From positions 67,611 to 131,610 of the forward strand of contig CAZFTP010000001.1 of NCBI GenBank assembly GCA_964521915.1: DNA of 64,000 nt. Direction: 5' to 3'. Both the position numbers and the translations under genes were made by a program. This stretch comes from an uncultured Candidatus Marinamargulisbacteria bacterium. GTDB taxonomy: Bacteria > Margulisbacteria > Marinamargulisbacteria > CAZFTP01. Every line of letters begins with the position of its first letter. The first letter of the stretch is position 1. Positions 749-58,687 of this stretch are shown here, one piece after another. The notes under the pieces were generated by a model that made no database searches, had not been told where the DNA came from, and saw only the letters and a program-made list of their open reading frames with translations.

Positions 749-3250
749 ATGCAAGAAAAAATTCAACCGCAAAAGCCGTATCTTTTTGTCGATATTTCTA
801 AACCAACCGGTATAAAACCGAATGTTGAGCATAATAAAACTTTATCTGATTTATCAGCTGTTTTTGATTATTTAATTTCCGTTAATAAAACGACTTCTAT
901 CAGCCATTTAATCCAGAATATTAAAAGTCTGTTAGAAAAAAAAGAACCTGTCCCTCCTAGTGTTTACAATCGAATAACACAACAAGCAGAAATGTTTTTA
1001 CACCTAATTAATACTTTACCAACAGAAATACAATATAAAAGTATTGCTAGTTTGCAATTAATTATTCAAGTCTTATCCGATATTAATAACGATCTAACTG
1101 ATCATCAAAAAGAAAGCCTTACTAAATTAAAAGAACATCTTTTTAGTTTACTTTCTAAGTACGAGCCTCATTTTTATCTAAACCAAAAAGAAATAAGAAG
1201 AGCTTTTTTTAAATTAAAAAATGAATCAACTACACTTACTGAATTACTAACACAACCACCTCTTGAAAAAAATTCAAATAACCTAAAAAATAATTCTAAA
1301 TTTTCTTTACCGGAATTAATTAAATTAACCAGCAAACAAAATCATCAACGTGTTGTTTTAAGACAAATTGAAACAACACCAAAAAACATTCAACAATTAT
1401 TACAAAATCTCAATCTTTATTTAAACCAAATTATCAATAATCAAATTCAAAATAGTCAAATAATTATGCATAATATTACCGATACACTTAACAAATTAAG
1501 TACCCTGTTTTTATTTTCTCATTTTTTAACACCTACTTTATATCATCATTTAATTATGATTTTTGAAACGGCTGTAAACTTAATTGATAACCAAAAATAT
1601 CAAACTTTGATTGATAAACAACTTACTTTTTTAACAAAAACTATCCCTAAAATGCCAATTAATTTACCAGTATTAGAAACGAATACTTTAAAATTAAATT
1701 TTTTAGATCATGGTTATTTAAAATCATTATTATCGATAACTTCACTAGAATTAAAACCAGATTTTGAAAATGTAATTGAAATAGTCAAAAATGCAATAAA
1801 GTCACCTAAAAATAATAATTTAGAAACAAATCAAATTTTTATTAAAGATCTTATTACTAAAATCATTAAAAATCGTGCCAGCAATCGAAACGACCTCTTG
1901 GTACTTCTGGCAACAATTTTACGATTAGGACAACTTTTAATCATAACTCAAAAAAATTCTCTTCAATTCCGTAATTATTTAGCTTTAATGGACACCCTGA
2001 AAAATGTTAATTACAATTTTAAAGAAACTAATCTTAATATATGGACTATTCTTAATAGAATAGATTTTAAAATTTTAACTAATATTAACTCTATTTCTAA
2101 TACCGGTACCACTAAAAACACGCCAAATATAAATTTTACTACAGATCAACAACTACCAAAATTAAATTCTTATAATATTAATCATCAGCTAATTGATCCT
2201 ATAATTAAACAAAAAAATGACATGCCTATTTATAAACCCAATTTTGAACATCACGAAATTTTATCGGTTTCTGATGAACCCCCAACTCTAATTGCGGAAC
2301 GAATCTTATTATTAGATAATTTTAATCATCATCAGCCTGAAGAACATATTAACTCTTTTATTTCTAATTTTTTCTGGTTTGAAGACTATTTAATAACAGG
2401 TTACGGCGATGGAACTATCAAAATTTGGCTAAAAAAAGATGATAAGTACAAACTAACTGGTTTTTTTGATTCTCATCTAGACCAAATCAATGATTTAAAA
2501 CTTTATAAAAACAACCTTGTTTCTGGTTCTGCAGACGCCAGCATCAGCCTTTGGGACGTTATTAACACTCGGCATCTTCTTAAGTTTAAAGAACATCGAG
2601 ATCAAATTACCAAATTGCATATAGGCTGGCATAATATCGGAATTGGCGATATGGAACTAGTAATGAGCAGTTCTTTAGATGGTACCGTAAAAATTTGGGG
2701 AGCAAAATCTGGTATTTGTCTTAAAACTCTAGATATTAACAATTCCGGGGTAACAGATTTTTGTTTTCAAGGTGAAATCATTATTACCAGCTCCAAAGAT
2801 CAAGTTATCAGGGTGTGGGATATCATCAATAATAATTGTTTATTAAACTTAAAAGGGCATTCTGCAGAAATTACCGGGTTAAAAATATTTGGTTCTTTAT
2901 TAATAAGTGCTTCAAAAGATCATACAATCAGATTGTGGGATTTAGAAAATGGTAATTGTGTTGATGTTCTTTACGGACATCAAGGCGGTATCAATTATTT
3001 ATGGATAGATTCCAACCAAAAACTTATTAGCGCCAGTGATGATAAAACTATCAGAATTTGGAATTTAAACAATAAAAAAACCAGTCGTATTTTAAAAGGG
3101 CACACAGCTGAAATAACTTGTATACAAACAAATAATAACCAATTATTAAGTAGCGGCAAGGATCATAAATTATTACTCTGGGATCTTACCACCGGCGAGT
3201 GTATTGAGCACTTTAACGGATCTTCACTAGCTAAAGATTTATTAAAATAA
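749..3250 (+). CDS. F-box-like / WD40-repeat protein. About 520 aa of Asn/Gln-rich helical N-terminal region, then a putative F-box-like segment (PPTLIAERILLLDNF), then 7 WD40 blades
   Basis: Repeated WD dipeptide blades (IKIWL, ISLWDV, VKIWG, IRVWDI, IRLWDL, IRIWNL, LLLWDL) each preceded by GH/SxS motifs; L-x-x-E-I-L-L-L-D motif about 50 aa before the first blade; no Walker A motif. Confidence 0.6.
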   Translation: MQEKIQPQKPYLFVDISKPTGIKPNVEHNKTLSDLSAVFDYLISVNKTTSISHLIQNIKSLLEKKEPVPPSVYNRITQQAEMFLHLINTLPTEIQYKSIASLQLIIQVLSDINNDLTDHQKESLTKLKEHLFSLLSKYEPHFYLNQKEIRRAFFKLKNESTTLTELLTQPPLEKNSNNLKNNSKFSLPELIKLTSKQNHQRVVLRQIETTPKNIQQLLQNLNLYLNQIINNQIQNSQIIMHNITDTLNKLSTLFLFSHFLTPTLYHHLIMIFETAVNLIDNQKYQTLIDKQLTFLTKTIPKMPINLPVLETNTLKLNFLDHGYLKSLLSITSLELKPDFENVIEIVKNAIKSPKNNNLETNQIFIKDLITKIIKNRASNRNDLLVLLATILRLGQLLIITQKNSLQFRNYLALMDTLKNVNYNFKETNLNIWTILNRIDFKILTNINSISNTGTTKNTPNINFTTDQQLPKLNSYNINHQLIDPIIKQKNDMPIYKPNFEHHEILSVSDEPPTLIAERILLLDNFNHHQPEEHINSFISNFFWFEDYLITGYGDGTIKIWLKKDDKYKLTGFFDSHLDQINDLKLYKNNLVSGSADASISLWDVINTRHLLKFKEHRDQITKLHIGWHNIGIGDMELVMSSSLDGTVKIWGAKSGICLKTLDINNSGVTDFCFQGEIIITSSKDQVIRVWDIINNNCLLNLKGHSAEITGLKIFGSLLISASKDHTIRLWDLENGNCVDVLYGHQGGINYLWIDSNQKLISASDDKTIRIWNLNNKKTSRILKGHTAEITCIQTNNNQLLSSGKDHKLLLWDLTTGECIEHFNGSSLAKDLLK

Positions 3251-3750: not shown

Positions 3751-3887
3751 TGTTGCTCCTTTTTATGTATACCCGTGGGGCGAAGCCCCACGGGTATACG
3801 AGAGAAATTGTTTTGCCCTGCCGGGCGGGCTTTAAGGCTTCGCCTTAAAAATCCTTTTTTTCTAAGGGGCTGCGCCTCTTAAACCCC
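3751..3887. repeat. GC-rich mosaic intergenic repeat cluster (modules A and B) between queF and the amidotransferase gene
   Basis: Perfect 33-nt hairpin at 3767-3799 (gtatacccgtggggc-gaa-gccccacgggtatac) plus ttctaaggggctgcgcctcttaaacccc unit; related copies at at least 8 other loci. Confidence 0.85.
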
Positions 3888-4457: not shown

Positions 4458-4493
4458 TAGTATTTCCTTGTATCTCCATTGGGCTACGCCCAA

Positions 4494-4719
4494 TGGAGAT
4501 ACGAAAAAGATATTTTTCTAAGGGACTCCGTCCCTTAAACCCTGTGGGGCTTCGCCCCGAGAACTAACAAGGTTTTTCTAAGGGGGCAAGCCCCTTCAAC
4601 CCCCAAAAATCATGTTAATCATTTAATCATGCGAATCCTGGTTCAGACAGTTCTCCGTCCCTTAAACCCTAGGTTTTATTTATGTATACCCGGGTGGCTC
4701 CGCCACCCGGGTATACGAA
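4494..4719. repeat. GC-rich mosaic repeat cluster (modules B, C, A) inserted between the component I and II synthase genes
   Basis: Units gggactccgtccc, ggggcaagcccc and gggcttcgcccc; ATCAT array at 4606-4650; perfect hairpin at 4684-4716 (gtatacccgggtggc-tcc-gccacccgggtatac). Confidence 0.85.
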
Positions 4720-11175: not shown

Positions 11176-11403
11176 ACCCTAAGGATGAATATAGTATTCT
11201 TAGGGGACTTCGTCCCCTAAAACCCCTTGGGGAATAATGGTTTTTAAGGGACTCCGTCCCTTAAACCCTGGCGGGGCAAGCCCCTGCACCCCATGGATTT
11301 TTAAGGCGTAGCCTTAATATACCCAAAAGGGGTTTAAGGGGGCTTGCCCCCTTAGAAAACAATATTTTTCTCGTACTCTTTTTTGCGAAGCAAAAAAGAG
11401 TAC
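11155..11403. repeat. GC-rich mosaic repeat cluster inserted between leuC and leuD, ending in an AT-rich perfect hairpin
   Basis: Units gggaccttcggtccc, ggggacttcgtcccc, gggactccgtccc, ggggcaagcccc, gggggcttgccccc; hairpin gtactcttttttgc-gaa-gcaaaaaagagtac at 11373-11403. Confidence 0.8.
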
Positions 11404-12058: not shown

Positions 12059-13720
12059 CTAAGTTACCTTTTGAACATCTTCTGCCACCGAACTAATCGA
12101 ACTTAAATTAAACTTCTCTTTAATAATCTTATAAACATTTGGCGATATAAAAGCAGGCAAAGTTGGTCCTAAAATAATATTTTTAAATCCTAGGCTTAAA
12201 AGCATTAATAATACCAATACGGCTTTTTGTTCATACCAAGCAATATCAAAGGAAATTGGTAAATCATTAAGATCACTTAAACCAAAGACTTCCTTTAATT
12301 TTAAGGCAATTACAGCAAGAGAATAACTATCGTTACATTGACCGGCATCAAGTACCCTAGGTATACCGTTAATTGTACCTAAATCCAAAAAATTATACCG
12401 ATATTTAGCACAACCGGCAGTCAAAATTATTGTATCCGACGGTAATTTTTCGGCAAATTCGGTATAGTAAGTTCTTTCTTTAAATCGACCATCGCAACCA
12501 GCCATCACTATAAAACGTTTAATTGCGCCGGATTTTATAGCTTCTATAATCTTATCAGCATTAGCTAAAACGGTATCGTGAGCAAAACCAATTGTTAATT
12601 TCTTGCCTTCTTTAACCTCTAAATCGCCTAACTCTTGGGCTTTTTGTATAAGCCCGGAAAAATCTTTCGGTTGATTATTCTTCCTATCTTCAATATGTTT
12701 TACTCCCGGCCAAGCAACAAGTCCAGTAGTAAAAATGCGATCTTCATAAGTATCCAAAGGTTTTTGAATACAATTGGTGGTCATTAAAATTGCACCTTTA
12801 AATTCCGCAAACTCTTTTTGTTGATTGTACCAAGAAGACCCGAAATTCCCGATCAAATTTCCATACTGCTTGAAAAACGGGTAAGCATTTGCCGGCAACA
12901 TTTCACCATGAGTATAAATATTCACGTCTGTACCTTTAGTTTGTTCTAAAAGCTCAGCTAAATCTCTTAAATCATGCCCGCTAATTAATATTCCCGGTCC
13001 TTTTATGGTGCCGGTAAAAACTTCGGTAATTTCTGGTTTGCCATAGGTACTAGTGTTTGCAGTATCTAAAAGCGCCATAGTTTCTGCTCCGAAATTACCG
13101 GTTTCAATAATTAAACCCAAATACTCTTCGGCAGTTAAATTACTCAAACCTATTTTAGCTAGACAATTTTCGATAAAATCAAAAATCTTTTCATTTGTAT
13201 AACCTAAAACATAAGCATGATCTAAATAAGCCGAAATTCCTTTTAAACCATAGATAAGTAAATATCTTAAAGACCTAATATCTTCATTTTCAATACTTAA
13301 AATACCAACTTCTTTTGCTTTAGCTAAATAAGTTTGTTTTGAACTAATACTTGGTTGCCAATAGGCACTTTCTGGAACAAAGTTAAAATCAAAGGGCTGT
13401 TTGTTTTGTTCTTGGAATTTAACCAAAAACTTTTCTTTTAAACTGTCTCTTAAATCAAAAGCTTTATTAATAAGAACTATTAAACGATCATCATCAAAAT
13501 TAACATTAGTGATAGTTGAAAATAAGGCTTGAATAATAAAAACCGAAATAGTTTCATTTTTTAACCCAAGTTTTTTACTTTCAACCTGCCAAAAGCTTAA
13601 ACCGAACAATAAATAAATTAATAAATCCATTAAATTACTGGAATCGTCTTTTTTGCCGCAGACACCTTGGATGCTACAGCCTTGATTTTTCACGGTTTCT
13701 TGACATTGGTAGCAAAACAT
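12059..13720 (-). CDS. hcp: hydroxylamine reductase / hybrid-cluster protein
   Basis: MFCYQCQET N-terminal Cys motif of Hcp; start moved to the ATG at 13720, which is preceded by AAGGAG. Confidence 0.9.
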   Translation of the reverse strand: MFCYQCQETVKNQGCSIQGVCGKKDDSSNLMDLLIYLLFGLSFWQVESKKLGLKNETISVFIIQALFSTITNVNFDDDRLIVLINKAFDLRDSLKEKFLVKFQEQNKQPFDFNFVPESAYWQPSISSKQTYLAKAKEVGILSIENEDIRSLRYLLIYGLKGISAYLDHAYVLGYTNEKIFDFIENCLAKIGLSNLTAEEYLGLIIETGNFGAETMALLDTANTSTYGKPEITEVFTGTIKGPGILISGHDLRDLAELLEQTKGTDVNIYTHGEMLPANAYPFFKQYGNLIGNFGSSWYNQQKEFAEFKGAILMTTNCIQKPLDTYEDRIFTTGLVAWPGVKHIEDRKNNQPKDFSGLIQKAQELGDLEVKEGKKLTIGFAHDTVLANADKIIEAIKSGAIKRFIVMAGCDGRFKERTYYTEFAEKLPSDTIILTAGCAKYRYNFLDLGTINGIPRVLDAGQCNDSYSLAVIALKLKEVFGLSDLNDLPISFDIAWYEQKAVLVLLMLLSLGFKNIILGPTLPAFISPNVYKIIKEKFNLSSISSVAEDVQKVT

Positions 13721-13773
13721 TGTTGTTCTCCTTTTTTCTTTTTTGAAAAGAAACAAAATTTTTTATTTTATAT

Positions 13774-13803
13774 CTACTTTCTTTTTGTGAAAAAAGAAAG
13801 TAG
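13774..13803. promoter_or_regulatory. perfect 13-bp inverted repeat (ctactttcttttt-gtga-aaaaagaaagtag) about 55-85 nt upstream of hcp; candidate operator
   Basis: Read directly from the sequence; a second shorter palindrome tttcttttttgaaaagaaa lies at 13733-13751. Confidence 0.5.
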
Positions 13804-13816
13804 CAAAGAAAATCAC

Positions 13817-13915
13817 CCCAAAACACAGGGACCCGCTATTTGTGTGCTCAGCTCCACCCATCCCCCCGTGGGACCCCTTACGCTGTGCACAAAAACAGCG
13901 ACCTATGTTTTGGGG
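13817..13915. other. GC-rich structured element (about 99 nt) flanked by inverted ccccaaaaca/tgttttgggg arms, in the rrf2-hcp intergenic region
   Basis: Local GC is far above background; internal complementary segments (tttgtgtgctcagc / gctgtgcacaaa). Confidence 0.45.
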
Positions 13916-14053
13916 TTTGAACTCTTTTTTTACTCCCTCTCCTTAATAAGGAGAGGGGTGAGGTTATATTCCCCCTCGTTTTTTGCTTAAAAATCTAAAA
14001 ATTAACCAAAATATACCTGCCAGCAAAAAGAGAGGGGGTCAGGGGGTGAGTTA

Positions 14054-14449
14054 TCACAAATTTTTTATCTTAGTTCCCTCCAACTTAGCAAAAAATTCCT
14101 CCTGAAATTCTTTTAAAATCTTATGCATGGGGCAACTGCCTTGTAAAAAACAATTTCCTTCAGCATTTAAGCATTCATTAAAACGGAATTTAGGATCAAT
14201 AATATTAATTATATCTAAAACACTCGAATTTTTATTAATAAATCTTACTCCTCCTGTTTTACCTCTTTGCGATTCAATAATTCCTTTTTTCGCTAATTGC
14301 TGAAAAATTTTGGCTAAAAAAATTTCTGACACCTTAATATTTTTCGCAATTTGACTAATAGTTATAACATCATCCTGCGGTTGATTAGCTAAAAATATTA
14401 TTGCTCTTAAAGCATAATCTAACCTTCTACTAATTAATATCTCAATCAC
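14054..14449 (-). CDS. Rrf2-family (NsrR/IscR-like) Fe-S transcriptional regulator
   Basis: N-terminal wHTH (DYALRAIIFLA), C-terminal C-x6-C-x5-C cysteine triad; lies immediately upstream of hcp. Confidence 0.8.
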   Translation of the reverse strand: MIEILISRRLDYALRAIIFLANQPQDDVITISQIAKNIKVSEIFLAKIFQQLAKKGIIESQRGKTGGVRFINKNSSVLDIINIIDPKFRFNECLNAEGNCFLQGSCPMHKILKEFQEEFFAKLEGTKIKNL

Positions 14450-14690
14450 CTCCTAAATAAAACCATTTTAGTCTTATTTAAGAGTATGACCAAAAAATTA
14501 AGCTTTGTCAACAATATTATTAATATATTTACTTTGGTACTAGTGCGCTGGAAATATTTCTCTAATCTTATATAATAAAAAATACAAAAAAAAATTTAAA
14601 TATCAATAATTTAATAATCAGCGCTCCAAAAATAGCAAAATAATGTTTCAAAAAATTACTTTATTGGAAAAATATACTAGAGGATAAAAA

Positions 14691-14727: not shown

Positions 14728-17457
14728 ATGGATGCAATAGGTTTACCAAAACCAATTCCAACTAATCCTGGAGTAGCTCAGGAAATAAACGCTGAACCTA
14801 TAAAAGATGAAATTAAAAGAGGTATCTGTTCACCAACTAATTTACTTATAATCAAACCACCGTTAGATACTTCTCTCCTAACTATTATACCAGGTAAATT
14901 ATCAGATAAACAAACCGAGATTAATGATACAAGCGCTTATTTTTCAGAACTATCTTCATCAAAAGCAAAAGCTATAGTACCTACGCCTACTCCACCGCTA
15001 CCGCAAACATCGCCGTTACCATTATCATCAACATCTACATCCCCCCCAATTTCTACGCCAAGCCCAACAGTTCAAGGTTTTTTTACAGCTGATCTATTTC
15101 CTGGCTACGAAGAATCTGCTTCCGCTGAAACAAAACGAAAAATAATTACAGATAACTTTTACAATGAATATTTTAGCGATAACGAAGAATTAATTGGTAG
15201 CCTTACTAGAAATTTTTGCCAGATAAAAGAGACTTTATTAACTACAATACCTGAAAACCAACTAAAAATAGTCTCACAATTATGTACAGAAATAGAAAGA
15301 TTAATTGCTCTAAATATTAATGGTGAAGAAAATAATAATCCCTACTTTAATGCTGTAAATGCCTATATAGAAAGAATTCTAAAATTATTATTTGAAACTT
15401 TATCAGGGATTGAACCCGAAATAGATGGACCTTTACACACAATATATAATACTGCATTAGAAAAATTAAAAACGGCTGATAATATTGTTTATTTCCTATT
15501 AGAAAAAACTAAAACTTTTGAAAATTTAACAGAAACAAATTATTTCATAAATACCTATAAATTTGCAGATTATTTTGATCCAAATAGCGTTGAGACAAGT
15601 CTATCTGAAGCAACTGAGGCTGAAAGTCAACCTGAACAACCAAGAATATATCCTCACGATTTCAGAGAACTATATAGAAAAAAATTAGAGTTTGAGTTAA
15701 ATTATTTCCAAACTACGCTTTCAGATTTAGAAGAATACCTAAAAACTTCAATACCAGATTCTAATCCGGAACTAAATAAACTAATGGAATTGATCAATCA
15801 AAGTAGAAGCACTTTTCCTCCTGATTTAACTCCCCTAAATTTTTTGGAACTAAAAAATTTAACTGCCCATTGCAATGATCAGACAATAAAAATCATCTCT
15901 TCATTATCAGATTTATTAAGCAATATATTGTTGCCAGATTTTATTGATGTCCAAAAAGAAAAAATAAATATTTATATACACATGGGTAATCTATTACAAA
16001 AATTTAATAGTGAAGCATCTGTTATTTATTATCAAGAAGCTTTAAAAATTACAGATCAACTCCTTTTTTTATTTCCATTATCAGAAACAAACCTGGGAGA
16101 AATAAGGCAAAAGAAAATCACAATTACGGATAATATTATAAATGCTCTATCCATAGAGCTTAAAAATACGGTTTATGGTAATGATATATCCCTAATATTC
16201 TACAAAATAGCTAATTACTATTATCAATTAGGTCTTTACTCTGAAAAAATTGGCGAAATAGAAACCGCTCTTGATTATTATACCTTGGCATTATCTACAT
16301 ATTCAAAACAGATTTCGCATAATAATATATTTATCAGAACAAGAATAATGGAAATTAATCAACGTAAAGAAAAATTAGAAGGCACAAAAACAGATACTAA
16401 TGCTGAAAATGCTTTAAGTAGAGCTAAAATTATTGTTAAGCAATCAATTGCTAGGATGAATGGCGCTACTGAAGATACGCCAGAAGTAATACCTGCACCT
16501 GTAGAACCAAGCCAAATATTAAAACAAATTCAAAGAGACGGTGAATTATTTATTTTTCCCGATATTCATGCATCTTTAGACCTTGCCAGCCAGATGTTTT
16601 ATGCCGCCGGATTAACAGATGAAGATGGAAGCTGGCTAACTCCAGCTCAAAGAGCAGATCGCGGTGGAAATTCAGAACCAATTAACGTTGTAATACTTGG
16701 TGATTTTATAGATAGAGGTTTATATTCACACGAAACTCATGAATATCTAAAATATTTAAAGAAACTAGCAATAGCAACAGGCGATAACCTTGTTATTCTA
16801 GCAGGTAATCATGAGGCCGAAATATTCAGAAGCTCTTGTGGGGTAAATAATACTCCATATTTAGCAGATGAAATAAGAACTGAATTAAAAACAGATATTC
16901 TGCAAGGAACTATTCAATTAGCTTATTACAATCAAAAACATAATATTTTATTTACTCATGCTGGGTTAACTGAAAACTATTTAAAAACGTTTTATGGTCC
17001 TTTAGTTGGGAAACCCGCAACTGAAATTAGTACAATCCTAAACCTAGAATTTGTACAAAGTTTAGAAAATCCAGAAATTCTTACTAGATTATTAGTTGCT
17101 AGTACAAAAAGAGGTGGTTCTGCTGAATCTGGCAGTATGCTTTGGGCTGATGCAGAAGAATCATTTGCAGAATCAGGAGTACGCCCCTATATAAATATCT
17201 TCGGACATTCTCCTCATGCTATACCAATACAAAAACGCTCATTAATATGCTCTGATACCGGAATTTGCCCTTACTATGGCGGGCATATGTCTTTTCTAGT
17301 TAAAACCAAAAATCCGAATGAACCAATTAAATGGGTTCACTCAGAAGTTGATTATGAGGATTTACCAGAAGATCAAGATATTGAAATTTCTGGATATGAT
17401 TTAAAAGAAAATCCGGTAAACTCTGCTTGGGCTGTTTTGGGTATTCCAGGTGCATAA
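14728..17457 (+). CDS. large TPR-like + PPP-family Ser/Thr phosphatase protein (PP5-like architecture) with a Pro/Ser/Thr-rich N-terminal linker
   Basis: C-terminal motifs PDIHAS (GDxHG-like), GDFIDRG (GDxVDRG), GNHE, HAG, GHSPH; central TPR-like YYQEALKI/YYQLGLY/ALDYYTLAL; N-terminal PTPTPPLPQTSPLPL. Confidence 0.7.
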   Translation: MDAIGLPKPIPTNPGVAQEINAEPIKDEIKRGICSPTNLLIIKPPLDTSLLTIIPGKLSDKQTEINDTSAYFSELSSSKAKAIVPTPTPPLPQTSPLPLSSTSTSPPISTPSPTVQGFFTADLFPGYEESASAETKRKIITDNFYNEYFSDNEELIGSLTRNFCQIKETLLTTIPENQLKIVSQLCTEIERLIALNINGEENNNPYFNAVNAYIERILKLLFETLSGIEPEIDGPLHTIYNTALEKLKTADNIVYFLLEKTKTFENLTETNYFINTYKFADYFDPNSVETSLSEATEAESQPEQPRIYPHDFRELYRKKLEFELNYFQTTLSDLEEYLKTSIPDSNPELNKLMELINQSRSTFPPDLTPLNFLELKNLTAHCNDQTIKIISSLSDLLSNILLPDFIDVQKEKINIYIHMGNLLQKFNSEASVIYYQEALKITDQLLFLFPLSETNLGEIRQKKITITDNIINALSIELKNTVYGNDISLIFYKIANYYYQLGLYSEKIGEIETALDYYTLALSTYSKQISHNNIFIRTRIMEINQRKEKLEGTKTDTNAENALSRAKIIVKQSIARMNGATEDTPEVIPAPVEPSQILKQIQRDGELFIFPDIHASLDLASQMFYAAGLTDEDGSWLTPAQRADRGGNSEPINVVILGDFIDRGLYSHETHEYLKYLKKLAIATGDNLVILAGNHEAEIFRSSCGVNNTPYLADEIRTELKTDILQGTIQLAYYNQKHNILFTHAGLTENYLKTFYGPLVGKPATEISTILNLEFVQSLENPEILTRLLVASTKRGGSAESGSMLWADAEESFAESGVRPYINIFGHSPHAIPIQKRSLICSDTGICPYYGGHMSFLVKTKNPNEPIKWVHSEVDYEDLPEDQDIEISGYDLKENPVNSAWAVLGIPGA

Positions 17458-21027: not shown

Positions 21028-21126
21028 AATTTATGTCTATCTATAAGGGTCTCCGTCCCTTAAACCCTGATTTTTTTTCTCCTGTCTCCTGACTCCGGTC
21101 TTCTGTCTCCCGAGCCCCTCTAGTAC
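21028..21126. repeat. GC-rich repeat cluster (module B unit, CT-rich tctcctg repeats, module D)
   Basis: agggtctccgtcccttaaaccct; ctctagtacct overlaps the thiC stop codon. Confidence 0.7.
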
Positions 21127-22596: not shown

Positions 22597-22710
22597 TTTT
22601 ATTCCTCGTTCAATTCATTATACCTAGATCAATAGTTTTGGAACAGAGGAATTTTTTTATGTGCTTAAATTTTTTTGCTTTGCAAAAAAATTTAAGCACT
22701 AATCGATCTA

Positions 22711-23355: not shown

Positions 23356-23619
23356 TTATCTCCTCCCTTTTTTTATAATTGCTTTTGTCGACAAAAATAC
23401 AACTATATAAAAGCTTAGACAAAAAAATAGCGAAAATCAAGTACTATTTTCATTAATAAAAATTTTGTTTTTAATATTGATATATTATTTATCGCTACAA
23501 AAATAGATAAAATTATCAAGGGGGAATATAAAATCCATTTTATAAAAAGCTTTTTAATTAATATGATAATAAACAATACTTTTTATATTTATAGATAAAA
23601 ATGAGTTTTAATTGTAATT

Positions 23620-23662
23620 ATGAGTCTGTCGCAAAATGAGAAATAGCCATTTTGTAGCAGGT
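23620..23662. repeat. MITE-like inverted-repeat element, copy 1 (gagtctgtcgcaaaatg...ccattttgtagcagg)
   Basis: Shares the terminal-repeat core with copies at 24688, 35941, 36040, 44897 and 55060. Confidence 0.7.
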
Positions 23663-23673
23663 TTATTTTTAAC

Positions 23674-23706
23674 GTACCCCTGGGGGACAGCCCCCCCCAG
23701 GGGTAC
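23674..23706. repeat. module-A-type GC hairpin (gtacccctggggg-acagcc-cccccaggggtac)
   Basis: Palindrome read directly; same architecture as the 33-nt hairpins elsewhere. Confidence 0.75.
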
Positions 23707-24687: not shown

Positions 24688-24757
24688 TAGTCTGTCGCAA
24701 AATGAGACATTTTTTCAAAATAGTTTTGAGAAATAGCCATTTTGTAACAGACTCATC
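24688..24757. repeat. MITE-like inverted-repeat element, copy 2 (full length, about 70 bp)
   Basis: agtctgtcgcaaaatgagacattttttcaaaatagttttgagaaatagccattttgtaacagactc. Confidence 0.75.
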
Positions 24758-25854: not shown

Positions 25855-26120
25855 GATTGTTTATAATGTATACCCAGGGTGCGGAGCACCCTGGGTATAC
25901 GAGAAAAGGTAGTTTTCTAAGGGGCTTCGCCCCTTATACCCCATGGGGCTTTCGCCCCGAGAAACAAGGGAAATTATTTTCGAAGGGCTTTTTTTCATGA
26001 TTCTATCTTAACCCTTAATCTTACTCCTTAACCTTATTAGCAGACCCCCTTAAACCCCCTATAAAATCATGCTAATCATTTAATCATACGAATCATGGTT
26101 CAAGACATTCCCTATTGCCT
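25855..26120. repeat. GC-rich mosaic repeat cluster (modules A, B, B', C); the most complete composite locus
   Basis: Perfect hairpin at 25868-25900 (gtatacccagggtgc-gga-gcaccctgggtatac); ggggcttcgcccc and ggggctttcgcccc units; ATCAT array atcatgctaatcatttaatcatacgaatcatggttcaagacattcc. Confidence 0.85.
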
Positions 26121-30379: not shown

Positions 30380-30707
30380 TGTATTTATTTTTCCCTAATA
30401 ATCCTATTTTTTATTTTAAAAAAGAAACAAAATTTTATATTTATGTATCCCCAGGGTGCTTCGCACCCTGGGGATACATAAAAAACTCATGAGATGAGGG
30501 TAAAAATTCACCCTCTTTAACCTCGTAGAGCTATCATATCTGAACTCCGATTTATAGAATTATAAGATTTTCTTGATTAAAGGGTATATCTTAGGCTTAC
30601 TTATTTCTTTAATCATGCTAATCATTTAATCATGTAAATCATGGTTCAAGACATTTCCCTGAGCCCCACTAGTGCCTAGTGCCTTTTGCCTAGTACCTGT
30701 TCCCCAT
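30380..30707. repeat. mosaic repeat cluster (module E aaaagaaacaaaatttt, module A hairpin 30445-30477, ATCAT array, module D ctagtgcctagtgccttttgcctagtacct)
   Basis: Perfect hairpin gtatccccagggtgc-ttc-gcaccctggggatac; module D abuts the stop codon of the leuA/cimA-family gene. Confidence 0.85.
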
Positions 30708-35982: not shown

Positions 35983-36039
35983 TTAATTTTTGATTTGGAG
36001 TTTATGCTTATAAATAATTAATTTTAACGCACTAGTTTG

Positions 36040-36068
36040 GGAAAATAGCCATTTTGCTACAGACTCAA
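36040..36068. repeat. MITE-like half copy (aaatagccattttgctacagactc) upstream of ssb
   Basis: Right-arm terminal repeat only. Confidence 0.6.
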
Positions 36069-36119
36069 AGGAGAAAATAAAAAAAATAACCTAACCTTAC
36101 TTTAAAAAGAGGTGTTAAA

Positions 36120-36464: not shown

Positions 36465-36469
36465 TGGCT

Positions 36470-36504
36470 GTTATCTCCATGGTGCATAGCACCATGGAGA
36501 TAAC
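36470..36504. terminator. perfect 16-bp GC hairpin between the convergent ssb and OMP genes
   Basis: gttatctccatggtgc-ata-gcaccatggagataac. Confidence 0.6.
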
Positions 36505-36510
36505 AACTAA

Positions 36511-37984: not shown

Positions 37985-38057
37985 TGCGCCGTCGGGGATT
38001 CGAACCCAGGGCCCACTGATTAAGAGTCAGTTGCTCTACCAACTGAGCTAACGGCGC
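37985..38057 (-). tRNA. tRNA-Lys (anticodon CTT), no encoded CCA
   Basis: Reverse complement GCGCCGTTAGCTCAGTTGGTAGAGCAACTGACTCTTAATCAGTGGGCCCTGGGTTCGAATCCCCGACGGCGCA folds as a cloverleaf; anticodon loop CTCTTAA with U33. Confidence 0.85.
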
Positions 38058-38065
38058 GATATTTA

Positions 38066-38098
38066 ATTATATGTTGAGGCTACGCCTCAACATATAAT
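38066..38098. terminator. perfect 15-bp hairpin between rpsJ and tRNA-Lys
   Basis: attatatgttgaggc-tac-gcctcaacatataat. Confidence 0.55.
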
Positions 38099-38430
38099 TA
38101 AGAGTTTAACTTGATTTCTATATCTACGCCTTGCGGTAAATCTAATTGCATTAAAGCATCCATAGCAGAAGCTGGTGGATCTATGATATCAATTAATCTT
38201 TTATAAATTCTGATTTCATAATGCTCCCCCCCTCTTTTGTGCACATGAGGAGATTTAAGGATACACCATACTTTTTTTTCAGTTGGTAATGGAATTGGCC
38301 CAACTACTTTAGCACCGGATTTTTCGGCAGTTTTTACTATTTTCTCAGAAGATTGGTCTACTAAGATATGTTCAAATGCTTTTAATCTGATTCTGATTTT
38401 TTGTTCTTTTTTCTTTGTTGCTGTTGTCAA
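38098..38430 (-). CDS. rpsJ: 30S ribosomal protein S10
   Basis: [12 protein letters not shown]...GPIPLPT...LIDI motifs. Confidence 0.95.
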
Positions 38431-40971: not shown

Positions 40972-41791
40972 ATATTTTTTGTATTCTTTCTATAGAAATA
41001 GTTTTACCATTTTCCGTATCAATTTCTAAAATAATGCCATTTAAAAACTTATCTCCATAAGTTGGCGGTTCATATTTCACTGGCATTTGGGTTATAAATT
41101 TTTCAATAATTGGAGCCACTTCCATACCAATTACACTATCTCTAGCACCTACCATACCAATATCTGTAATATAACCAGTACCTTGCGGTAATATTCTTTC
41201 ATCAGCTGTAATAACATGAGTATGCGTACCAAAAACCGTACTTACTTTACCATCTAAAAACCAACCTAAAGCTTGTTTTTCTGACGTGGTTTCCGCATGA
41301 AAATCAACAATAACAAGATTAGTTTCAGCTTTTATTTCCGGTAAAATCCGTGATATAGTTTGAAACGGACAATCTGATAACCCCATAAAAACTCTACCAA
41401 CTAAATTAACCACTGCTATTTTATATTCATTTAACCTAAAAATTCGATAACCAACACCTGGGTTACTAAATAAATAATTTAAGGGTCGTACCATTTTTTT
41501 ATATTCATTAAAATCATTGATGCTTTCTTTCTTATTATAAATATGATTTCCGCTAGTATAAGCTTGGATATTATAATTATTAAAATCCTGATAAATCTTG
41601 GTGGTAATACCATGCCCGCCAGCTACATTTTCTATATTTACAATAGTAAAATGAATATCGTTTTCTTTTTGAATTTTAGCAAGATGTTCCTTAATAACCT
41701 GACGACCAGGTTTACCAACTACATCACCTAAACATAAGATTTTTATTTTTTTCAAAATGGTTTCCATTTCATATCCATGTAGCGAAGCCAC
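40964..41791 (-). CDS. ymdB: YmdB-like metallophosphoesterase (TIGR00282 family)
   Basis: KILCLGDVVGKPGR N-terminus; located downstream of rny as in Bacillus. Confidence 0.8.
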   Translation of the reverse strand: MASLHGYEMETILKKIKILCLGDVVGKPGRQVIKEHLAKIQKENDIHFTIVNIENVAGGHGITTKIYQDFNNYNIQAYTSGNHIYNKKESINDFNEYKKMVRPLNYLFSNPGVGYRIFRLNEYKIAVVNLVGRVFMGLSDCPFQTISRILPEIKAETNLVIVDFHAETTSEKQALGWFLDGKVSTVFGTHTHVITADERILPQGTGYITDIGMVGARDSVIGMEVAPIIEKFITQMPVKYEPPTYGDKFLNGIILEIDTENGKTISIERIQKIFE

Positions 41792-41998
41792 ATGGATATA
41801 AGAATTAATTTTCTAATGGGCTTAGCCCCTTAAACCCTTTGGGGCTAACGCCCCAACTCCAAGGGGAGATATCTTTTCTTAAGGGGCTTCGCCCCTTAAA
41901 CCCCGAGGAAGATATTTTCTCTTTTCCCAACGTTAGCACTTTAGCACGTTGAACGATTCTTGAGCCCCCCTAGTGCCTAATGCCTTCTGCCTAGTGCC
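41792..41998. repeat. mosaic repeat cluster (modules B x3, D) between ymdB and rny
   Basis: Units gggcttagccc, ggggctaacgcccc, ggggcttcgcccc; ctagtgcctaatgccttctgcctagtgcctta abuts the rny stop codon. Confidence 0.8.
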
Positions 41999-44562: not shown

Positions 44563-44896
44563 AATTTTCCTCCTTATTAATTATTTATGTATATTAAAGC
44601 TTCGCCTTAATATACATATAAAATACATAAAAAAAATTTTATTTATATCAATGAAAAATCTAAACAGAAGATACAGGATTACTTTGAATTAGTAATAACC
44701 AAACTAAATTTTCCAACAAAATTTATAATAAATTATTTTTTGTTAATTAACAAAAAAGATTTTTTTAATAATTTCAATTATTTACAAATATTTAAGTAAT
44801 CTAACTTTAATTTTATAGATATTAAATAGCTTATTTTATATCTAACTATTTAGTATTTTTCATAATCTAACCTTACTACTAGTATTATAACAAATT

Positions 44897-44936
44897 ATGA
44901 GTCTGTTGCAAAATGGCTATTTCGCGACAGACTCAT
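44897..44936. repeat. MITE-like compact copy with perfect 10-bp termini (atgagtctgt...acagactcat)
   Basis: atgagtctgttgcaaaatggctatttcgcgacagactcat. Confidence 0.7.
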
Positions 44937-44960: not shown

Positions 44961-45893
44961 TTATAAAAAGAGACCCTTGTATAAAAAATACACTCCAAAG
45001 CTAATTAAACCTACCAACCAAAACAACAAAACAACCTTAATTTCACTTAAGCCCATCATTTCAAAATGATGATGCAAAGGCGCCATTTTAAAAATCCGCC
45101 TTTTAAATAATTTATAACTACCAACCTGCAAAATTACAGACAAAGTTTCACAAATATAAACAAAACCAAACGGTATTAATAACCAAAAATTATTCAATAT
45201 CAAACTTAAACCCACAAAAAGAGCCCCTATTGATAAAGAACCGGTATCGCCCATAAAAATTTTGGCTTTATGCTTATTGAAAATTAGAAAACATAAAATT
45301 GAAGTAATAAAAACACCAACAAATTTTATTGATTCTAAATCGTTAACCTTAAAAAAAACCAGAAAAAAACCTATTGCCGAAATTATACTTAAACCACCTA
45401 ATAAACCATCTAAACCATCAGTTAAATTGGTAGCATTAGAAAACCCTACCATTAAAAACCAATAAATTAAAAAATTTATAATTCCAACTTTATTGATAAA
45501 AATAGTATATACACTTAATAAAACAAAAGTAATAATTATCTGAAGAAGAAATTTTTGTTTTGCGGAAAACCCCTTATTCTTATGACTTTTAACAGATAAA
45601 AAATCGTCCACAAAACCTAATATCACAAAACTTAAAAATACCAAATAAAGCCATAATATTATTGGCGAAAACAGCTTAAAAATAATTATGCCCAAACTTA
45701 AAATAAACAAAATACCTATGCCACCAAAAGACGGTGTTTTACTCTTTTGCTGATGACTTCCAGGACTAAGATCATAAATAGGCTGATAAATTTTTATCTG
45801 CTTTAAAAAAATGATTAACAACCAATAAAATACAACACCAACAAAAAAAAGCAAAATAAATTTAAGCATATTTTTCCTTAAGTTTTTCAACAA
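44961..45893 (-). CDS. mraY: phospho-N-acetylmuramoyl-pentapeptide transferase
   Basis: Polytopic membrane protein; GFVDDFLS and NLTDGLDGL motifs. Confidence 0.85.
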   Translation of the reverse strand: MLKNLRKNMLKFILLFFVGVVFYWLLIIFLKQIKIYQPIYDLSPGSHQQKSKTPSFGGIGILFILSLGIIIFKLFSPIILWLYLVFLSFVILGFVDDFLSVKSHKNKGFSAKQKFLLQIIITFVLLSVYTIFINKVGIINFLIYWFLMVGFSNATNLTDGLDGLLGGLSIISAIGFFLVFFKVNDLESIKFVGVFITSILCFLIFNKHKAKIFMGDTGSLSIGALFVGLSLILNNFWLLIPFGFVYICETLSVILQVGSYKLFKRRIFKMAPLHHHFEMMGLSEIKVVLLFWLVGLISFGVYFLYKGLFL

Positions 45894-47001
45894 TTTCTTC
45901 CATTTTCATACCTCTAGAACCTTTTATTAATATTACATCACCGGATTTTATTTCCGAAAAAAGTAAATTCATCAATTCTTTTTTATCTAAAAATGAAAAC
46001 TTAGTAATATCTTTTGATTTTACTTGCTGATATATCTCACCAAAAGTAAAAACTAAATCTATGCCATTTTCAACAGCCGCAATATTGATAATTTTTTCGT
46101 GTTCTTTAAAAGCTTCTTTACCTAGTTCCAACATGTCGCCAAGTACTAAAATTTTTCTCCCCGGCATTTTTTTCTGAAATTCCATTGCATAACAAACTCC
46201 ATCAGGATTAGCATTATAACTATCATCAATGATGGTTATATCTAATTTTGTTCCTTTAGTAACTGCCAATCTTTTTTCACTAGCGTGAAATTTTGCCATA
46301 CCTTCTCTAATTTCTTCATCATTCAAACCAAAATGCTTAGCAACCAGATAACACAAATTAAAACCTTGGTCTATCTTAGTTTCACCGCTAAAATTTAAAA
46401 CTTTAAAATTATTTTTCACCGCTTTTTCTTGCAGTAATTTATGATACGCTGTTTTTGAATTTAAAAAAGCATATCTTGTTTCTTTTTCCCAATTTAAAAC
46501 CGGCTGGAAAATTTCTGCTTTGGCTAAAGCAATATTTCTTTGCGTTTTTAATCTTTCTACATGTGTTAACCCAATATTAGTAATTATGGCATGAGTTGGA
46601 CGGCAAATTTTAGATAAAATCTTGATTTCTCCTCTTAAACGCATAGCTAATTCTACAATAATTATTTCAGTATCAAAATCTGCTTTTAAAATAGTTAATG
46701 GTACGCCTATCTCATTATTTTGATTTTGAAAAGTAGCCACAACCTTAAATTTTTGGCTTAAAATAGCATAGAGTAAATCTTTAGTAGTAGTTTTACCTGC
46801 CGAACCGGTAATAGCAATTACTTTTGCCTTTAATTTTTTTCGGTAATTTTTAGCGAATTTGGTAAGATCAACATCAAGAATTTTTCGGGCTCCTTTTTTG
46901 AGAGCTTCTTGAATAAAATCATGCCCATCAAAGTTTTCACCTTTGATTGGAATATAAATATCTCCTGGTTGTAATGTTCTGGTGTCGATAGATATTTTCA
47001 C
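45862..47001 (-). CDS. murF: UDP-MurNAc-tripeptide--D-Ala-D-Ala ligase (short form, GTG start)
   Basis: ITGSAGKTTTKDLL P-loop; position between murE and mraY. Confidence 0.75.
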   Translation of the reverse strand: MKISIDTRTLQPGDIYIPIKGENFDGHDFIQEALKKGARKILDVDLTKFAKNYRKKLKAKVIAITGSAGKTTTKDLLYAILSQKFKVVATFQNQNNEIGVPLTILKADFDTEIIIVELAMRLRGEIKILSKICRPTHAIITNIGLTHVERLKTQRNIALAKAEIFQPVLNWEKETRYAFLNSKTAYHKLLQEKAVKNNFKVLNFSGETKIDQGFNLCYLVAKHFGLNDEEIREGMAKFHASEKRLAVTKGTKLDITIIDDSYNANPDGVCYAMEFQKKMPGRKILVLGDMLELGKEAFKEHEKIINIAAVENGIDLVFTFGEIYQQVKSKDITKFSFLDKKELMNLLFSEIKSGDVILIKGSRGMKMEEIVEKLKEKYA

Positions 47002-47186
47002 TTTTTTTCCTTTTTCTTTTTAGAAAAGAAACAAAAAATTTTATTTTTAGGAGATTTTTCTTTTTGGAAAAAAGAAAAACCCTCTAAGACCCAAAAAGAA
47101 AAACTTTATTGCGGCTCAACTCGTTTTTTTCCTAAGCTAAACTTTGTGCCTTATTTTCTAAAATCATAGTCCATCAAATAATCATT
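47002..47186. repeat. degenerate repeat region (module E palindromes and an ATCAT-like array that runs into the murE 3' end)
   Basis: ttagaaaagaaacaaaaaattttat; ttttctttttggaaaaaagaaaa; aaatcatagtccatcaaataatcattttaatcacagttcaagac. Confidence 0.6.
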
Positions 47187-55116: not shown

Positions 55117-55127
55117 AAGGATAAATT

Positions 55128-58675: not shown

Positions 58676-58687
58676 TATAATTAATAA

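What the first reader, a model, noticed from the sequence alone, without database searches (positions are those of the whole stretch)
13721..14053. rrf2-hcp module with a perfect 13-4-13 palindrome and a GC-rich 99-nt palindromic element in the hcp promoter region
An Rrf2-family regulator with a three-Cys Fe-S ligand pattern (NsrR/IscR-like) sits directly upstream of the hybrid-cluster protein gene, a classic nitrosative-stress pairing. The 330-nt spacer contains three elements. A perfect inverted repeat ctactttcttttt-gtga-aaaaagaaagtag (13774-13803) lies 55-85 nt upstream of the hcp start. A second palindrome tttcttttttgaaaagaaa lies at 13733-13751. An unusual GC-rich element (13817-13915) is bounded by ccccaaaaca/tgttttgggg. 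The AT-rich dyads are plausible operators for the Rrf2 protein. The GC-rich element could be an sRNA or processed leader.
Basis: partly seen in the sequence, partly recalled or inferred. Interest (0 to 1): 0.5.

Follow-up and report, generated by a model that had tools for sequence, protein, structure and literature searches.

The report
Portable hairpin module splitting rrf2 and hcp
The palindromes between the rrf2 regulator gene and the hcp gene are real, but they belong to a reusable block of hairpin-forming DNA that also sits in front of unrelated genes, so they are probably not the regulator's specific binding sites.

Summary
Both genes lie on the minus strand, so the order is rrf2, then a 333-nt spacer, then hcp. 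The spacer is a chain of five hairpins.

The operator interpretation does not hold up:
- The roughly 95-nt AT-rich part, with both dyads in the same order and spacing, recurs directly upstream of murF in the same window. Part of it recurs upstream of a lysA-like gene.
- In a related metagenomic species (L184), the AT-rich part is fused to a 97%-identical copy of the 100-nt GC hairpin. There it lies between ilvN and an skp-like gene.
- Across its three copies, dyad 1 keeps a 13-14 bp predicted stem (12-13 Watson-Crick pairs as DNA) through compensatory changes, while its loop length varies (3, 4 or 5 nt). That fits a hairpin, not a fixed-spacing dimer operator.
- The closest rrf2 homologue sits 10 nt from hcp with no such spacer. 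It shares an ATAAGACTAAA palindrome half-site with the window's rrf2 promoter, which is a better operator candidate.

The GC hairpin is far more conserved than neutral sites and folds better on the gene strand.

Best reading: a portable hairpin (terminator or processing site) plus promoter/leader module has been inserted into an rrf2-hcp operon. The mechanism is inferred, not shown.

The parts
14054..14449 (-). rrf2 gene (131 aa as called; three Cys at positions 93, 100 and 106)
   Evidence: Pfam Rrf2 E 5.7e-28. NCBIfam hits reach only the superfamily level: NsrR, IscR and RirA equivalog scores are far below their cut-offs. Cys positions. The called GTG start overlaps the AGGAGG Shine-Dalgarno sequence; the start aligned to the homologue would be ATA at 14440 (inference).
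14483..14511 (-). promoter-like site of rrf2 (TTGACA-17-CATACT)
   Evidence: Consensus scan, 10 of 12 matches. This is a consensus match only.
14455..14479 (-). candidate autoregulatory Rrf2 operator, AAATAAGACTAA-A-ATGGTTTTATTT (12-1-12, 9 of 12 positions symmetric)
   Evidence: It lies just downstream of the -10-like hexamer. It shares ATAAGACTAAA with TAATAAGACTAA-A-TTAGTCCGATTA, which lies just downstream of TTGACA-17-TATAAT in front of the closest rrf2 homologue (L084). There are only two sequences, so this is a lead. No copy occurs in the rrf2-hcp spacer.
13971..14038 (-). GC-rich hairpin A (17-nt arms, 34-nt AT-rich loop)
   Evidence: the repeat finder I3, 88% complementary; appears in the fold of the whole spacer. 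No other copy in the window.
13935..13957 (-). GC-rich hairpin B (perfect 11-1-11)
   Evidence: the repeat finder I11; fold. Its 5' flank TAACCTCACCCC repeats the TAACTCACCCC that follows the rrf2 stop codon.
13815..13916 (-). 100-102-nt GC-rich long hairpin C: 24 consecutive base pairs in the lower stem, with a non-palindromic G-rich apex
   Evidence: Fold -58.6 kcal/mol, z -6.85 on the gene strand against -44.8 on the other strand. Four G-U pairs on the gene strand and none on the other. 97 of 100 positions identical to L184 660-759. No Rfam family matches.
13804..13814 (-). U-rich tail/linker (with the closing U at 13815, UGAUUUUCUUUG on the gene strand)
   Evidence: The scan flags a terminator-like site at 13832->13815 on the minus strand followed by GATTTTCTTT. 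In L184 the U-run starts 5 nt after the stem.
13774..13803 (-). dyad 1: perfect 13-4-13 AT-rich hairpin
   Evidence: Its counterparts at murF (47053-47081) and in L184 keep predicted stems of 14 and 13 pairs (12-13 Watson-Crick pairs as DNA), with different outer pairs and loops of 3 and 5 nt.
13765..13772 (-). -10-like box TATAAAAT
   Evidence: Promoter-like TTTTCA-17-TAAAAT at 13793->13765, 9 of 12 matches. TAnAAAAT is kept in all four cassette copies. Promoter function is inferred.
13733..13763 (-). conserved block AAAATTTTGTTTCTTTT plus dyad 2 (TTTCTTTT/AAAAGAAA), ending next to the Shine-Dalgarno sequence
   Evidence: 92% identical over 37 nt to 47011-47047, and 96% over 23 nt to 30420-30442; alignment.
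13728..13731 (-). Shine-Dalgarno GGAG of hcp, 7 nt before the ATG at 13720
   Evidence: Read directly from the sequence.
12059..13720 (-). hcp (hybrid cluster protein / hydroxylamine reductase), 553 aa from the ATG at 13720
   Evidence: NCBIfam NF003658, 788.6 bits. Homologues start with MFCYQCQE / MFCFQCQE.
47006..47093 (-). second full copy of the AT-rich two-dyad cassette, directly upstream of murF (45862-47001)
   Evidence: nhmmer E 4.9e-19; sequence; alignment; murF identified by Pfam Mur ligase domains.
30407..30441 (-). partial copy of the cassette (conserved block only) upstream of a lysA-like decarboxylase gene; a GC hairpin at 30446-30478 takes the place of dyad 1
   Evidence: E 0.02; Pfam Orn/DAP decarboxylase.

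Best explanation
The 333-nt rrf2-hcp spacer is a mosaic of hairpin-forming intergenic repeat modules that has been placed inside what is, in the nearest relative, a tight rrf2-hcp operon. It is not an hcp-specific regulatory region.

Along the mRNA strand it reads as follows:
- Two GC-rich hairpins (A and B).
- A 100-nt GC-rich hairpin C with a U-rich tail.
- A roughly 95-nt AT-rich cassette made of dyad-1 hairpin, a TAnAAAAT box, the conserved block AAAATTTTGTTTCTTTT, dyad-2 hairpin and the Shine-Dalgarno sequence.

Hairpin C plus the cassette (13732-13916) is one portable unit.

Proposed mechanism (inferred): hairpin C ends, or is cleaved out of, the rrf2 transcript. It could act as an intrinsic terminator, or as a double-strand RNase (RNase III-type) site and 3' stabiliser. 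The AT-rich cassette then supplies hcp with its own -10-type promoter and a short leader that begins with protective stem-loops. Rrf2 itself most likely binds the palindrome next to its own promoter at 14455-14479. It would then control hcp only as far as transcription reads through the hairpins.

Shown: the structures, their repetition at unrelated genes, their conservation and strand asymmetry, and the tight operon in the relative.
Inferred: termination or processing, promoter activity, and the operator assignment.
For: 1. The cassette is not hcp-specific. Region 13733-13769 is 92% identical to 47011-47047 upstream of murF. The dyad-1-like TTTCTTTTTGGAAAAAAGAAA lies at the same roughly 44-nt spacing. 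A profile search finds full copies only at hcp and murF, with a partial copy at the lysA-like gene.
2. L184 574-760 aligns to window 13732-13916 at 88.8% over 188 nt (E 1e-63), with nothing else shared between the two sequences. There the flanking genes are ilvN and an OmpH/Skp-family gene.
3. The unit sits at derived junctions. The window genome and two relatives have ilvN overlapping aroC, with no spacer. The closest rrf2 homologue is 10 nt from hcp.
4. Dyad 1 behaves as a hairpin. The predicted stems have 13, 14 and 13 pairs (12-13 Watson-Crick pairs as DNA), the outer pairs change in a compensatory way, and the loops are 4, 3 and 5 nt. At the lysA-like gene an ordinary GC hairpin occupies the position of dyad 1.
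5. Hairpin C is 97/100 identical between two species whose ilvN third codon positions are only 69% identical. The binomial probability of 3 or fewer changes is about 1e-10 to 1e-12 at that rate. It is 13.5 kcal/mol more stable on the gene strand, owing to four G-U pairs.
6. A terminator-like tail follows hairpin C.
7. The window is full of similar hairpins placed just 5' of ribosome-binding sites.
8. No NsrR box is present.
9. An alternative operator candidate is shared with L084.
Against: - Only two copies of hairpin C and three to four copies of the cassette were found, so multi-copy status of hairpin C within one genome is not shown.
- No target-site duplication is visible, and no transposase was identified.
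- The promoter assignment rests on weak consensus matches in very AT-rich DNA (9 of 12 matches), and the -35 region is not conserved among copies.
- In L184 the U-run begins 5 nt after the stem, which is poor for an intrinsic terminator.
- Of the three substitutions between the two hairpin C copies, two weaken pairs on the gene strand and one creates a pair, so there is no covariation support for the hairpin C structure.
- The very high sequence conservation, including the unpaired apex, is more than a plain terminator needs.
- The cassette-bearing genes murF, lysA-like and skp are all cell-envelope related, so a shared trans-acting regulator of the cassette cannot be excluded.
Confidence: 0.55

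Rival explanations
1. One reading: the AT-rich dyads, especially the perfect 13-4-13 repeat, are operators for the adjacent Fe-S Rrf2 repressor. That would make hcp a directly NO-responsive target.
For: The gene pairing is real and is seen again in the closest homologue. The dyad is perfect, overlaps the promoter-like -35/spacer region, and has a length (30 bp) near that of known Rrf2 sites.
Against: The same cassette stands before murF, the lysA-like gene and, in a relative, skp. The half-site spacing varies (3, 4 or 5 nt) and the outer pairs change in a compensatory way. The relative's rrf2-hcp operon has no such dyad. The published NsrR motif gATGyAT-N5-ATrCATc (PMC1274295) is absent. The protein does not reach any NsrR, IscR or RirA equivalog cut-off.
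Confidence: 0.1
2. Hairpin C is a stand-alone, sequence-specific structured RNA: a small RNA or a protein-binding RNA element of an undescribed family. On this view the neighbouring AT cassette is just the next gene's promoter.
For: 97/100 identity is far above neutral expectation, and that includes the non-palindromic G-rich apex. The fold favours the gene strand. A U-rich tail follows. A TAAAAA / TATAAA box lies about 14 nt upstream of the hairpin in both copies. No Rfam family matches.
Against: Only two copies are known and there is no covariation. In L184 the hairpin starts 12 nt after the ilvN stop codon, so it could simply be the 3' end of that mRNA. The -10-like boxes are expected by chance in 30% GC DNA. 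In both cases the hairpin is joined to the same cassette in the same orientation.
Confidence: 0.2
3. The module is selfish or neutral DNA: a MITE-like or recombination-junction repeat with no role in rrf2 or hcp expression.
For: It has terminal inverted repeats. It lies at derived gene junctions in two species. The genome is rich in other intergenic repeat families. The Logan assembly contig ends exactly 31 nt inside hairpin C, as expected at k = 31 if a second copy with a different flank exists in that sample (inference).
Against: No target-site duplication is seen. Both full copies share the same orientation relative to the flanking genes. The cassette ends precisely at the ribosome-binding site of the downstream gene at hcp and murF. 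Conservation is uneven, 97% for hairpin C against about 84% for the cassette, which argues for selection on hairpin C.
Confidence: 0.15

Closest known systems
Correia repeat-enclosed elements (CREE) of Neisseria
   Same: Both are short (about 100-150 bp) intergenic elements with terminal inverted repeats that fold into long hairpins in mRNA. [quoted passage not shown] Here a 24-bp uninterrupted lower stem sits next to a promoter-like cassette. The position differs between related genomes.
   Different: No TA target duplication and no IHF site were recognised. Only two copies of hairpin C are known. The promoter-like part is a separate AT-rich cassette that also occurs without the hairpin (murF). 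There is no sequence similarity. RNase III cleavage is inferred only.
REP/BIME, ERIC, and pneumococcal BOX/RUP/SPRITE interspersed repeats
   Same: These are modular intergenic repeats built from hairpin units and co-transcribed with neighbouring genes. They have effects on mRNA stability or termination (established knowledge; survey in PMC3049150, review in PMC2229807). The window carries several such families.
   Different: The composition contrast is extreme: about 59% GC hairpins in a 30% GC genome. Hairpin C is unusually long and has a conserved asymmetric apex. No RAYT-type or other transposase was found among the 24 window proteins scanned; the remaining proteins were not scanned.
NsrR/IscR-type Rrf2 operators
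   Same: AT-rich inverted repeats of 23-29 bp overlapping promoters. NsrR controls hcp in many bacteria (PMC1274295).
   Different: The spacer dyads lack the NsrR consensus. They recur at housekeeping genes, and their half-site spacing varies. The better-matching candidate is the 12-1-12 palindrome at the rrf2 promoter.
Intrinsic (Rho-independent) terminators
   Same: A GC-rich stem followed by a U-rich tract on the transcribed strand.
   Different: The stem is 4-5 times longer than usual. Its sequence, not only its pairing, is conserved. The U-tract is displaced by 5 nt in the second copy.

Membership tests
NsrR-type operator (Rrf2 binding site) | Palindrome matching gATGyAT-N5-ATrCATc (PMC1274295) | tested here: not met
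   With up to 3 mismatches there is no match anywhere near rrf2 or hcp. The window holds 3 matches against 7.8 expected by chance.
NsrR-type operator (Rrf2 binding site) | Fixed half-site spacing and conserved half-site sequence among sites of one regulator | tested here: not met
   The three copies of dyad 1 have loops of 4, 3 and 5 nt and different, compensating outer pairs.
NsrR-type operator (Rrf2 binding site) | Sites restricted to the regulon (nitrosative-stress genes) | tested here: not met
   Copies lie upstream of murF and a lysA-like gene in the window, and upstream of skp in L184.
NsrR-type operator (Rrf2 binding site) | Bound by the cognate Rrf2 protein | not testable with these tools
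   Needs EMSA or footprinting.
Rrf2 family Fe-S transcription factor | Rrf2 winged-helix domain plus three C-terminal Cys ligands | tested here: met
   Pfam PF02082, 98 bits. Cys93, Cys100 and Cys106 (C-x6-C-x5-C). The same pattern is in the homologue on L084.
NsrR / IscR / RirA equivalogs | Score above the NCBIfam equivalog cut-off | tested here: not met
   RirA 86.6 against 193; NsrR 63.9 against 182; IscR 55.1 against 207.6. Only superfamily membership is supported.
Hybrid cluster protein (Hcp) | Full-length match above the equivalog cut-off | tested here: met
   NF003658, 788.6 bits against 367; TIGR01703, 729.9 bits against 360.8.
Intrinsic terminator | GC-rich stem immediately followed by a U-tract on the transcribed strand | tested here: inconclusive
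   Met in the window: GGGG then UGAUUUUCUUU. In L184 the U-run starts 5 nt after the stem. The stem is atypically long.
MITE / Correia-like mobile element | Terminal inverted repeats | tested here: met
   CCCCAAAACA / TGTTTTGGGG perfect; arms of about 37 nt imperfect.
MITE / Correia-like mobile element | Target-site duplication | tested here: not met
   The flanks are TTCAAA|...|TGATTT in the window and AACTCA|...|CGCACT in L184, with no duplication.
MITE / Correia-like mobile element | Many copies per genome, with filled and empty sites | tested here: inconclusive
   There is one copy of hairpin C in 64 kb. One copy lies at a different locus in a related species. 'Empty' ilvN-aroC and rrf2-hcp junctions exist in relatives. 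The rest of the genome could not be searched.
Any Rfam RNA family | Covariance-model match at the gathering score | tested here: not met
   The only hit in the window is a tRNA at 37985-38057. In the spacer, all hits are far below gathering scores and are generic hairpin-like miRNA models.

The most novel reading that the evidence does not exclude
Hairpin C is a previously undescribed, sequence-constrained structured RNA of about 100 nt, in an uncultivated AT-rich lineage that is probably related to Candidatus Margulisiibacteriota. It travels together with an AT-rich promoter/leader cassette as a roughly 185-nt portable 'stop-and-restart' module. That module rewires operons: it splits rrf2-hcp here and joins ilvN to skp in a relative.
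Probability: 0.3. Interest if true: 0.55.

Novelty: new variant of a known kind. Interest (0 to 1): 0.35.

Why it matters
It shows that a perfect palindrome next to a regulator gene can be generic repeat DNA rather than that regulator's operator. Regulon predictions in repeat-rich, uncultivated genomes need a copy-number check first.

If the module really terminates or processes one transcript and starts the next, it would be a compact natural example of operon rewiring by a mobile hairpin-plus-promoter unit in a poorly known phylum. The strongly conserved GC hairpin would then be a candidate new RNA element.

For hcp biology, the result suggests that this organism has uncoupled hcp from its Rrf2 sensor, at least partly.

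Tried and rejected
- **Rfam.** Gathering mode on the whole window and permissive mode on 13650-14120 gave nothing credible. Fourteen metagenome loci were also scanned without relevant hits.
- **Exact look-up of the Hcp protein** (553-aa and 565-aa forms). Neither is on record.
- **The 80 closest hcp loci in genome contigs.** They are only 52-60% identical, so the source genome and close relatives are absent. Only 5 loci have an Rrf2 gene nearby, at 25-33% identity, which is too distant for operator comparison.
- **Other Rrf2 homologues** (P0003, P0004, P0005). None is next to hcp.
- **Metagenome scan for CCCCAAAACA-N65-95-TGTTTTGGGG.** Most of the 107 hits are unrelated. Two large 87-nt and 88-nt families in GC-rich contigs share only the termini I searched for, and a profile of hairpin C does not find them. 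I rejected them as relatives.
- **Viral contigs scan** for the hairpin C core: 0 hits.
- **Small ORFs in the spacer** (20-50 aa). They have no ribosome-binding site. The frame of the 32-aa ORF at 13763-13861 is broken by an indel in L184. Rejected as coding.
- **The rrf2-promoter palindrome motif** elsewhere in the window: no enrichment and no copy near hcp.
- **A third copy via the skp and ilvN orthologues.** The window genome's ilvN junction is empty. The skp homologue P0041 could not be looked up. L200 only repeats L184.

Full report
**What is there**

Both genes lie on the minus strand.
- rrf2 is at 14054-14449. It matches Pfam Rrf2 (E 5.7e-28) and carries Cys93, Cys100 and Cys106. It reaches only superfamily level in NCBIfam and falls well below the NsrR, IscR and RirA equivalog cut-offs.
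- A 333-nt spacer (13721-14053) follows.
- hcp runs from the ATG at 13720 down to 12059. It matches the NCBIfam Hcp equivalog at 788 bits, and its GGAG Shine-Dalgarno sequence lies 7 nt upstream of the ATG.

- The 13-4-13 repeat at 13774-13803 is perfect and does not occur in shuffled sequence.
- The GC-rich element is 13816-13915, which is 100 nt.

Folded as RNA, the spacer is a chain of five hairpins: -127 kcal/mol with z -7.5 on the gene strand.

**The AT-rich dyads are part of a repeated cassette**

- A short-word BLAST of the spacer against the window found 13733-13769 at 92% identity at 47011-47047, and 13746-13768 at 96% identity at 30420-30442.
- The first hit is the region immediately upstream of murF (45862-47001; Mur ligase domains). 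There a dyad-1-like TTTCTTTTTGGAAAAAAGAAA sits at the same spacing of about 44 nt from the dyad-2 block, and the cassette again ends at the ribosome-binding site.
- The second hit is upstream of an Orn/DAP-decarboxylase (lysA-like) gene. There the conserved block TATAAAATTTTGTTTCTTTT is preceded by an ordinary GC-rich hairpin in the place of dyad 1.
- A profile built from the copies finds full-length matches only at hcp (E 1e-21) and murF (E 5e-19), and the partial one at the lysA-like gene (E 0.02).

So the cassette is a low-copy dispersed repeat, not a general promoter consensus. It also stands in front of genes that have nothing to do with nitrosative stress.

**The GC hairpin travels with the cassette**

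One metagenome scan for the element's termini returned 107 loci. One of them is L184, a 1.5-kb AT-rich contig (Ga0172379_10181922). It holds a copy of hairpin C with 3 substitutions in 100 nt. Right next to that copy, in the same order and orientation, are dyad 1, the TAnAAAAT box, the conserved block and dyad 2.
- BLAST gives 88.8% identity over 188 nt (window 13732-13916, E 1e-63). No other similarity exists between L184 and the window.
- In L184 the unit begins 12 nt after the stop codon of ilvN and precedes an OmpH/Skp-family gene.
- The ilvN orthologue of the window's own genome is 89% identical at the protein level. It is on the same 262,883-bp contig and in Logan sample SRR4343442. It is followed directly by aroC with no spacer, and so are two more distant relatives.
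- The closest rrf2 homologue (52% identity, L084) is followed by hcp after about 10 nt.

In both species, therefore, the unit sits at a junction that is tight or different in relatives. That points to insertion or rearrangement, not an ancient regulatory region.

**Hairpin or operator?**

The three versions of dyad 1 are:
- hcp: CUACUUUCUUUUU-ucac
- murF: GGUUUUUCUUUUU-ucc
- L184: UUUCUUUCUUUUA-ugcgc

All three fold into predicted stems of 13-14 pairs (12-13 Watson-Crick pairs as DNA). The outer pairs differ on both sides, and the loops are 4, 3 and 5 nt. A dimeric repressor would need fixed spacing and conserved bases, whereas a hairpin needs only complementarity.

The published NsrR motif (PMC1274295) is absent.

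There is a better operator candidate upstream of rrf2. Directly after a TTGACA-17-CATACT promoter-like site lies AAATAAGACTAA-A-ATGGTTTTATTT (14455-14479). In L084, directly after TTGACA-17-TATAAT, lies TAATAAGACTAA-A-TTAGTCCGATTA. The shared 11-mer ATAAGACTAAA, found between two promoters from genomes of very different base composition, is unlikely by chance (my rough estimate is about 1e-3). It still rests on two sequences only. No copy of it exists in the spacer.

**Hairpin C is under unusual constraint**

- Between L184 and the window genome, ilvN is 84% identical in DNA and 69% identical at third codon positions.
- Hairpin C is 97/100 identical. The binomial probability of 3 or fewer changes is 1e-10 to 1e-12 at the third-position rate, and 5e-5 at the whole-gene rate.
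- The adjoining cassette is only about 84% identical.
- The hairpin is more stable on the gene strand in both copies: -57.8 against -44.3 kcal/mol in the window, and -51.4 against -46.3 in L184. The window copy has four G-U pairs on the gene strand and none on the other strand. That points to an RNA-level role in the sense transcript.
- Its lower stem has 24 uninterrupted pairs and is followed by UGAUUUUCUUUG, which the terminator scan flags.
- The three substitutions give no covariation support: one creates a pair and two weaken pairs.
- No Rfam family matches.

**Genome background**

The window is 30% GC but is studded with short GC-rich perfect hairpins in intergenic regions. Many have the form GTATAC-stem-GC-NNN-GC-stem-GTATAC, with variable and covarying stems. 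Many end 16-70 nt before the next start codon, followed by CATAAA(AA)GGAG. The spacer is therefore a local instance of a genome-wide habit of placing stem-loops between cistrons.

**Most likely mechanism (inferred; confidence about 0.55)**

- Hairpin C, perhaps helped by hairpins A and B, stops the rrf2 transcript or is cut out of it. It would act as an intrinsic terminator and/or a double-strand-specific RNase site.
- The AT-rich cassette restarts expression with a -10-type box (TAnAAAAT) and a short leader whose stem-loops abut the Shine-Dalgarno sequence.
- Rrf2 would autoregulate at 14455-14479 and would reach hcp only through read-through.

Rivals:
- Rrf2 operator (0.1).
- Independent structured or small RNA (0.2). 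This is favoured by the conservation of the unpaired apex.
- Functionless MITE-like repeat (0.15).

A further caveat: murF, the lysA-like gene and skp are all envelope-related, so a common regulator acting on the cassette is conceivable.

**Comparison and novelty**

The closest analogues are the Neisseria Correia elements, which can create promoters and are bound or cleaved by RNase III (PMC2649163). Related cases are the modular repeats REP/BIME, ERIC and BOX (PMC3049150, PMC2229807).

Membership in a MITE family is not established. Terminal inverted repeats are present, but there is no target duplication, and copy number is unknown beyond 64 kb.

The source organism is probably related to Candidatus Margulisiibacteriota. 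This rests only on the nearest named IlvN homologues at 59-64% identity, so it is weak.

I rate this a new variant of a known kind, of moderate interest. The main value is the correction of a plausible but wrong operator call, plus a candidate conserved RNA hairpin worth a genome-wide census.

Noticed in passing
window 3767-3799, 4468-4504, 4684-4716, 11373-11403, 22661-22699, 23674-23706, 25868-25900, 30438-30484, 36467-36507, 38063-38101, 41771-41799, 44586-44618: A family of perfect intergenic hairpins of the form GTATAC-stem-GC-NNN-GC-stem-GTATAC. The stems are variable and covary, and range from GC-rich to fully AT-rich. The hairpins usually end 16-70 nt before the next start codon and are followed by CATAAA(AA)GGAG. 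The apex is often GCGAAGC / GCTTCGC, which I recall (from memory, not checked) as an unusually stable mini-hairpin motif. Seen.
   Followed up: partly
window ~23618-23660, 24689-24757, 36027-36073, 44894-44934, 55061-55119: Five copies of another intergenic repeat, GAGTCTGTCGCGAAAT(GAGAAAT...)AGCCATTTTGCAACAGACTC. It forms a hairpin with a conserved loop and appears in both orientations. Function unknown; no Rfam hit at gathering.
   Followed up: no
window ~4570-4656, 26050-26108, 30607-30655: Three copies of GTCTTGAACCATGATTCGTATGATTAAATGATTAGCATGATTT, which has internal ATGATT repeats. They lie in long intergenic regions next to TTTAAGGG...CCCTTAGAAAA hairpins.
   Followed up: no
window 21028-21126, ~30660-30707, ~41950-41998: Short GC-rich tandem-like tracts (GGCACTAGGCA..., GGAGACAGGAGA...) immediately after stop codons of minus-strand genes.
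   Followed up: no
window 58370-58687: A 318-nt intergenic region with a GC-rich, apparently structured core (GGGGGGAAATAC...CCCCCGTTTCTGACCCGCCGTGCGTC...CCCTCACTTTATTCCCCCC). It has no Rfam match at gathering score and may be an unannotated RNA gene.
   Followed up: no
window 14438-14454: The called GTG start of rrf2 (14449) overlaps the AGGAGG Shine-Dalgarno sequence (14454-14449). Aligned to the homologue's MLISRRLDYAL, the start would be ATA at 14440, 8 nt after the Shine-Dalgarno sequence. That would be a non-canonical start codon.
   Followed up: partly
window 14046-14056 and 13956-13967; L184 ~756-772: The motif TAAC(C)TCACCCC occurs three times: right after the rrf2 stop codon, again before hairpin B, and in L184 right after the ilvN stop codon, where it runs into the 5' end of hairpin C. 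This hints that hairpins A and B arose by local duplication of the module's 5' edge.
   Followed up: no
L086-L191 (e.g. L108 985-1072, L113 4383-4470, L150 5243-5329, L149 5402-5489): Two large families of 87-nt and 88-nt GC-rich palindromic elements in 55-70% GC metagenome contigs. They have conserved flanks that are themselves inverted repeats, and several copies occur per assembly (LNFM01..., Ga0105046...). No Rfam match among the 13 family loci scanned. They are unrelated to the window element apart from the termini used as the search pattern.
   Followed up: partly
L001 end (= window 13886); L193/L194 ends; L200 start: Short-read assemblies of this organism and its relative break inside these repeats. 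L001 stops 31 nt into hairpin C. L193 and L194 stop at the apex of a GTATACCCC hairpin. L200 starts inside the AT cassette. This is consistent with repeated copies in the samples.
   Followed up: partly
window 14728-17457 and 749-3250: A 909-aa protein with a Pro/Ser/Thr-rich N-terminal part and a C-terminal calcineurin-like phosphoesterase domain is transcribed divergently from rrf2. An 833-aa WD40 beta-propeller protein lies near the window start. Both are unusual for a small AT-rich bacterial genome.
   Followed up: no
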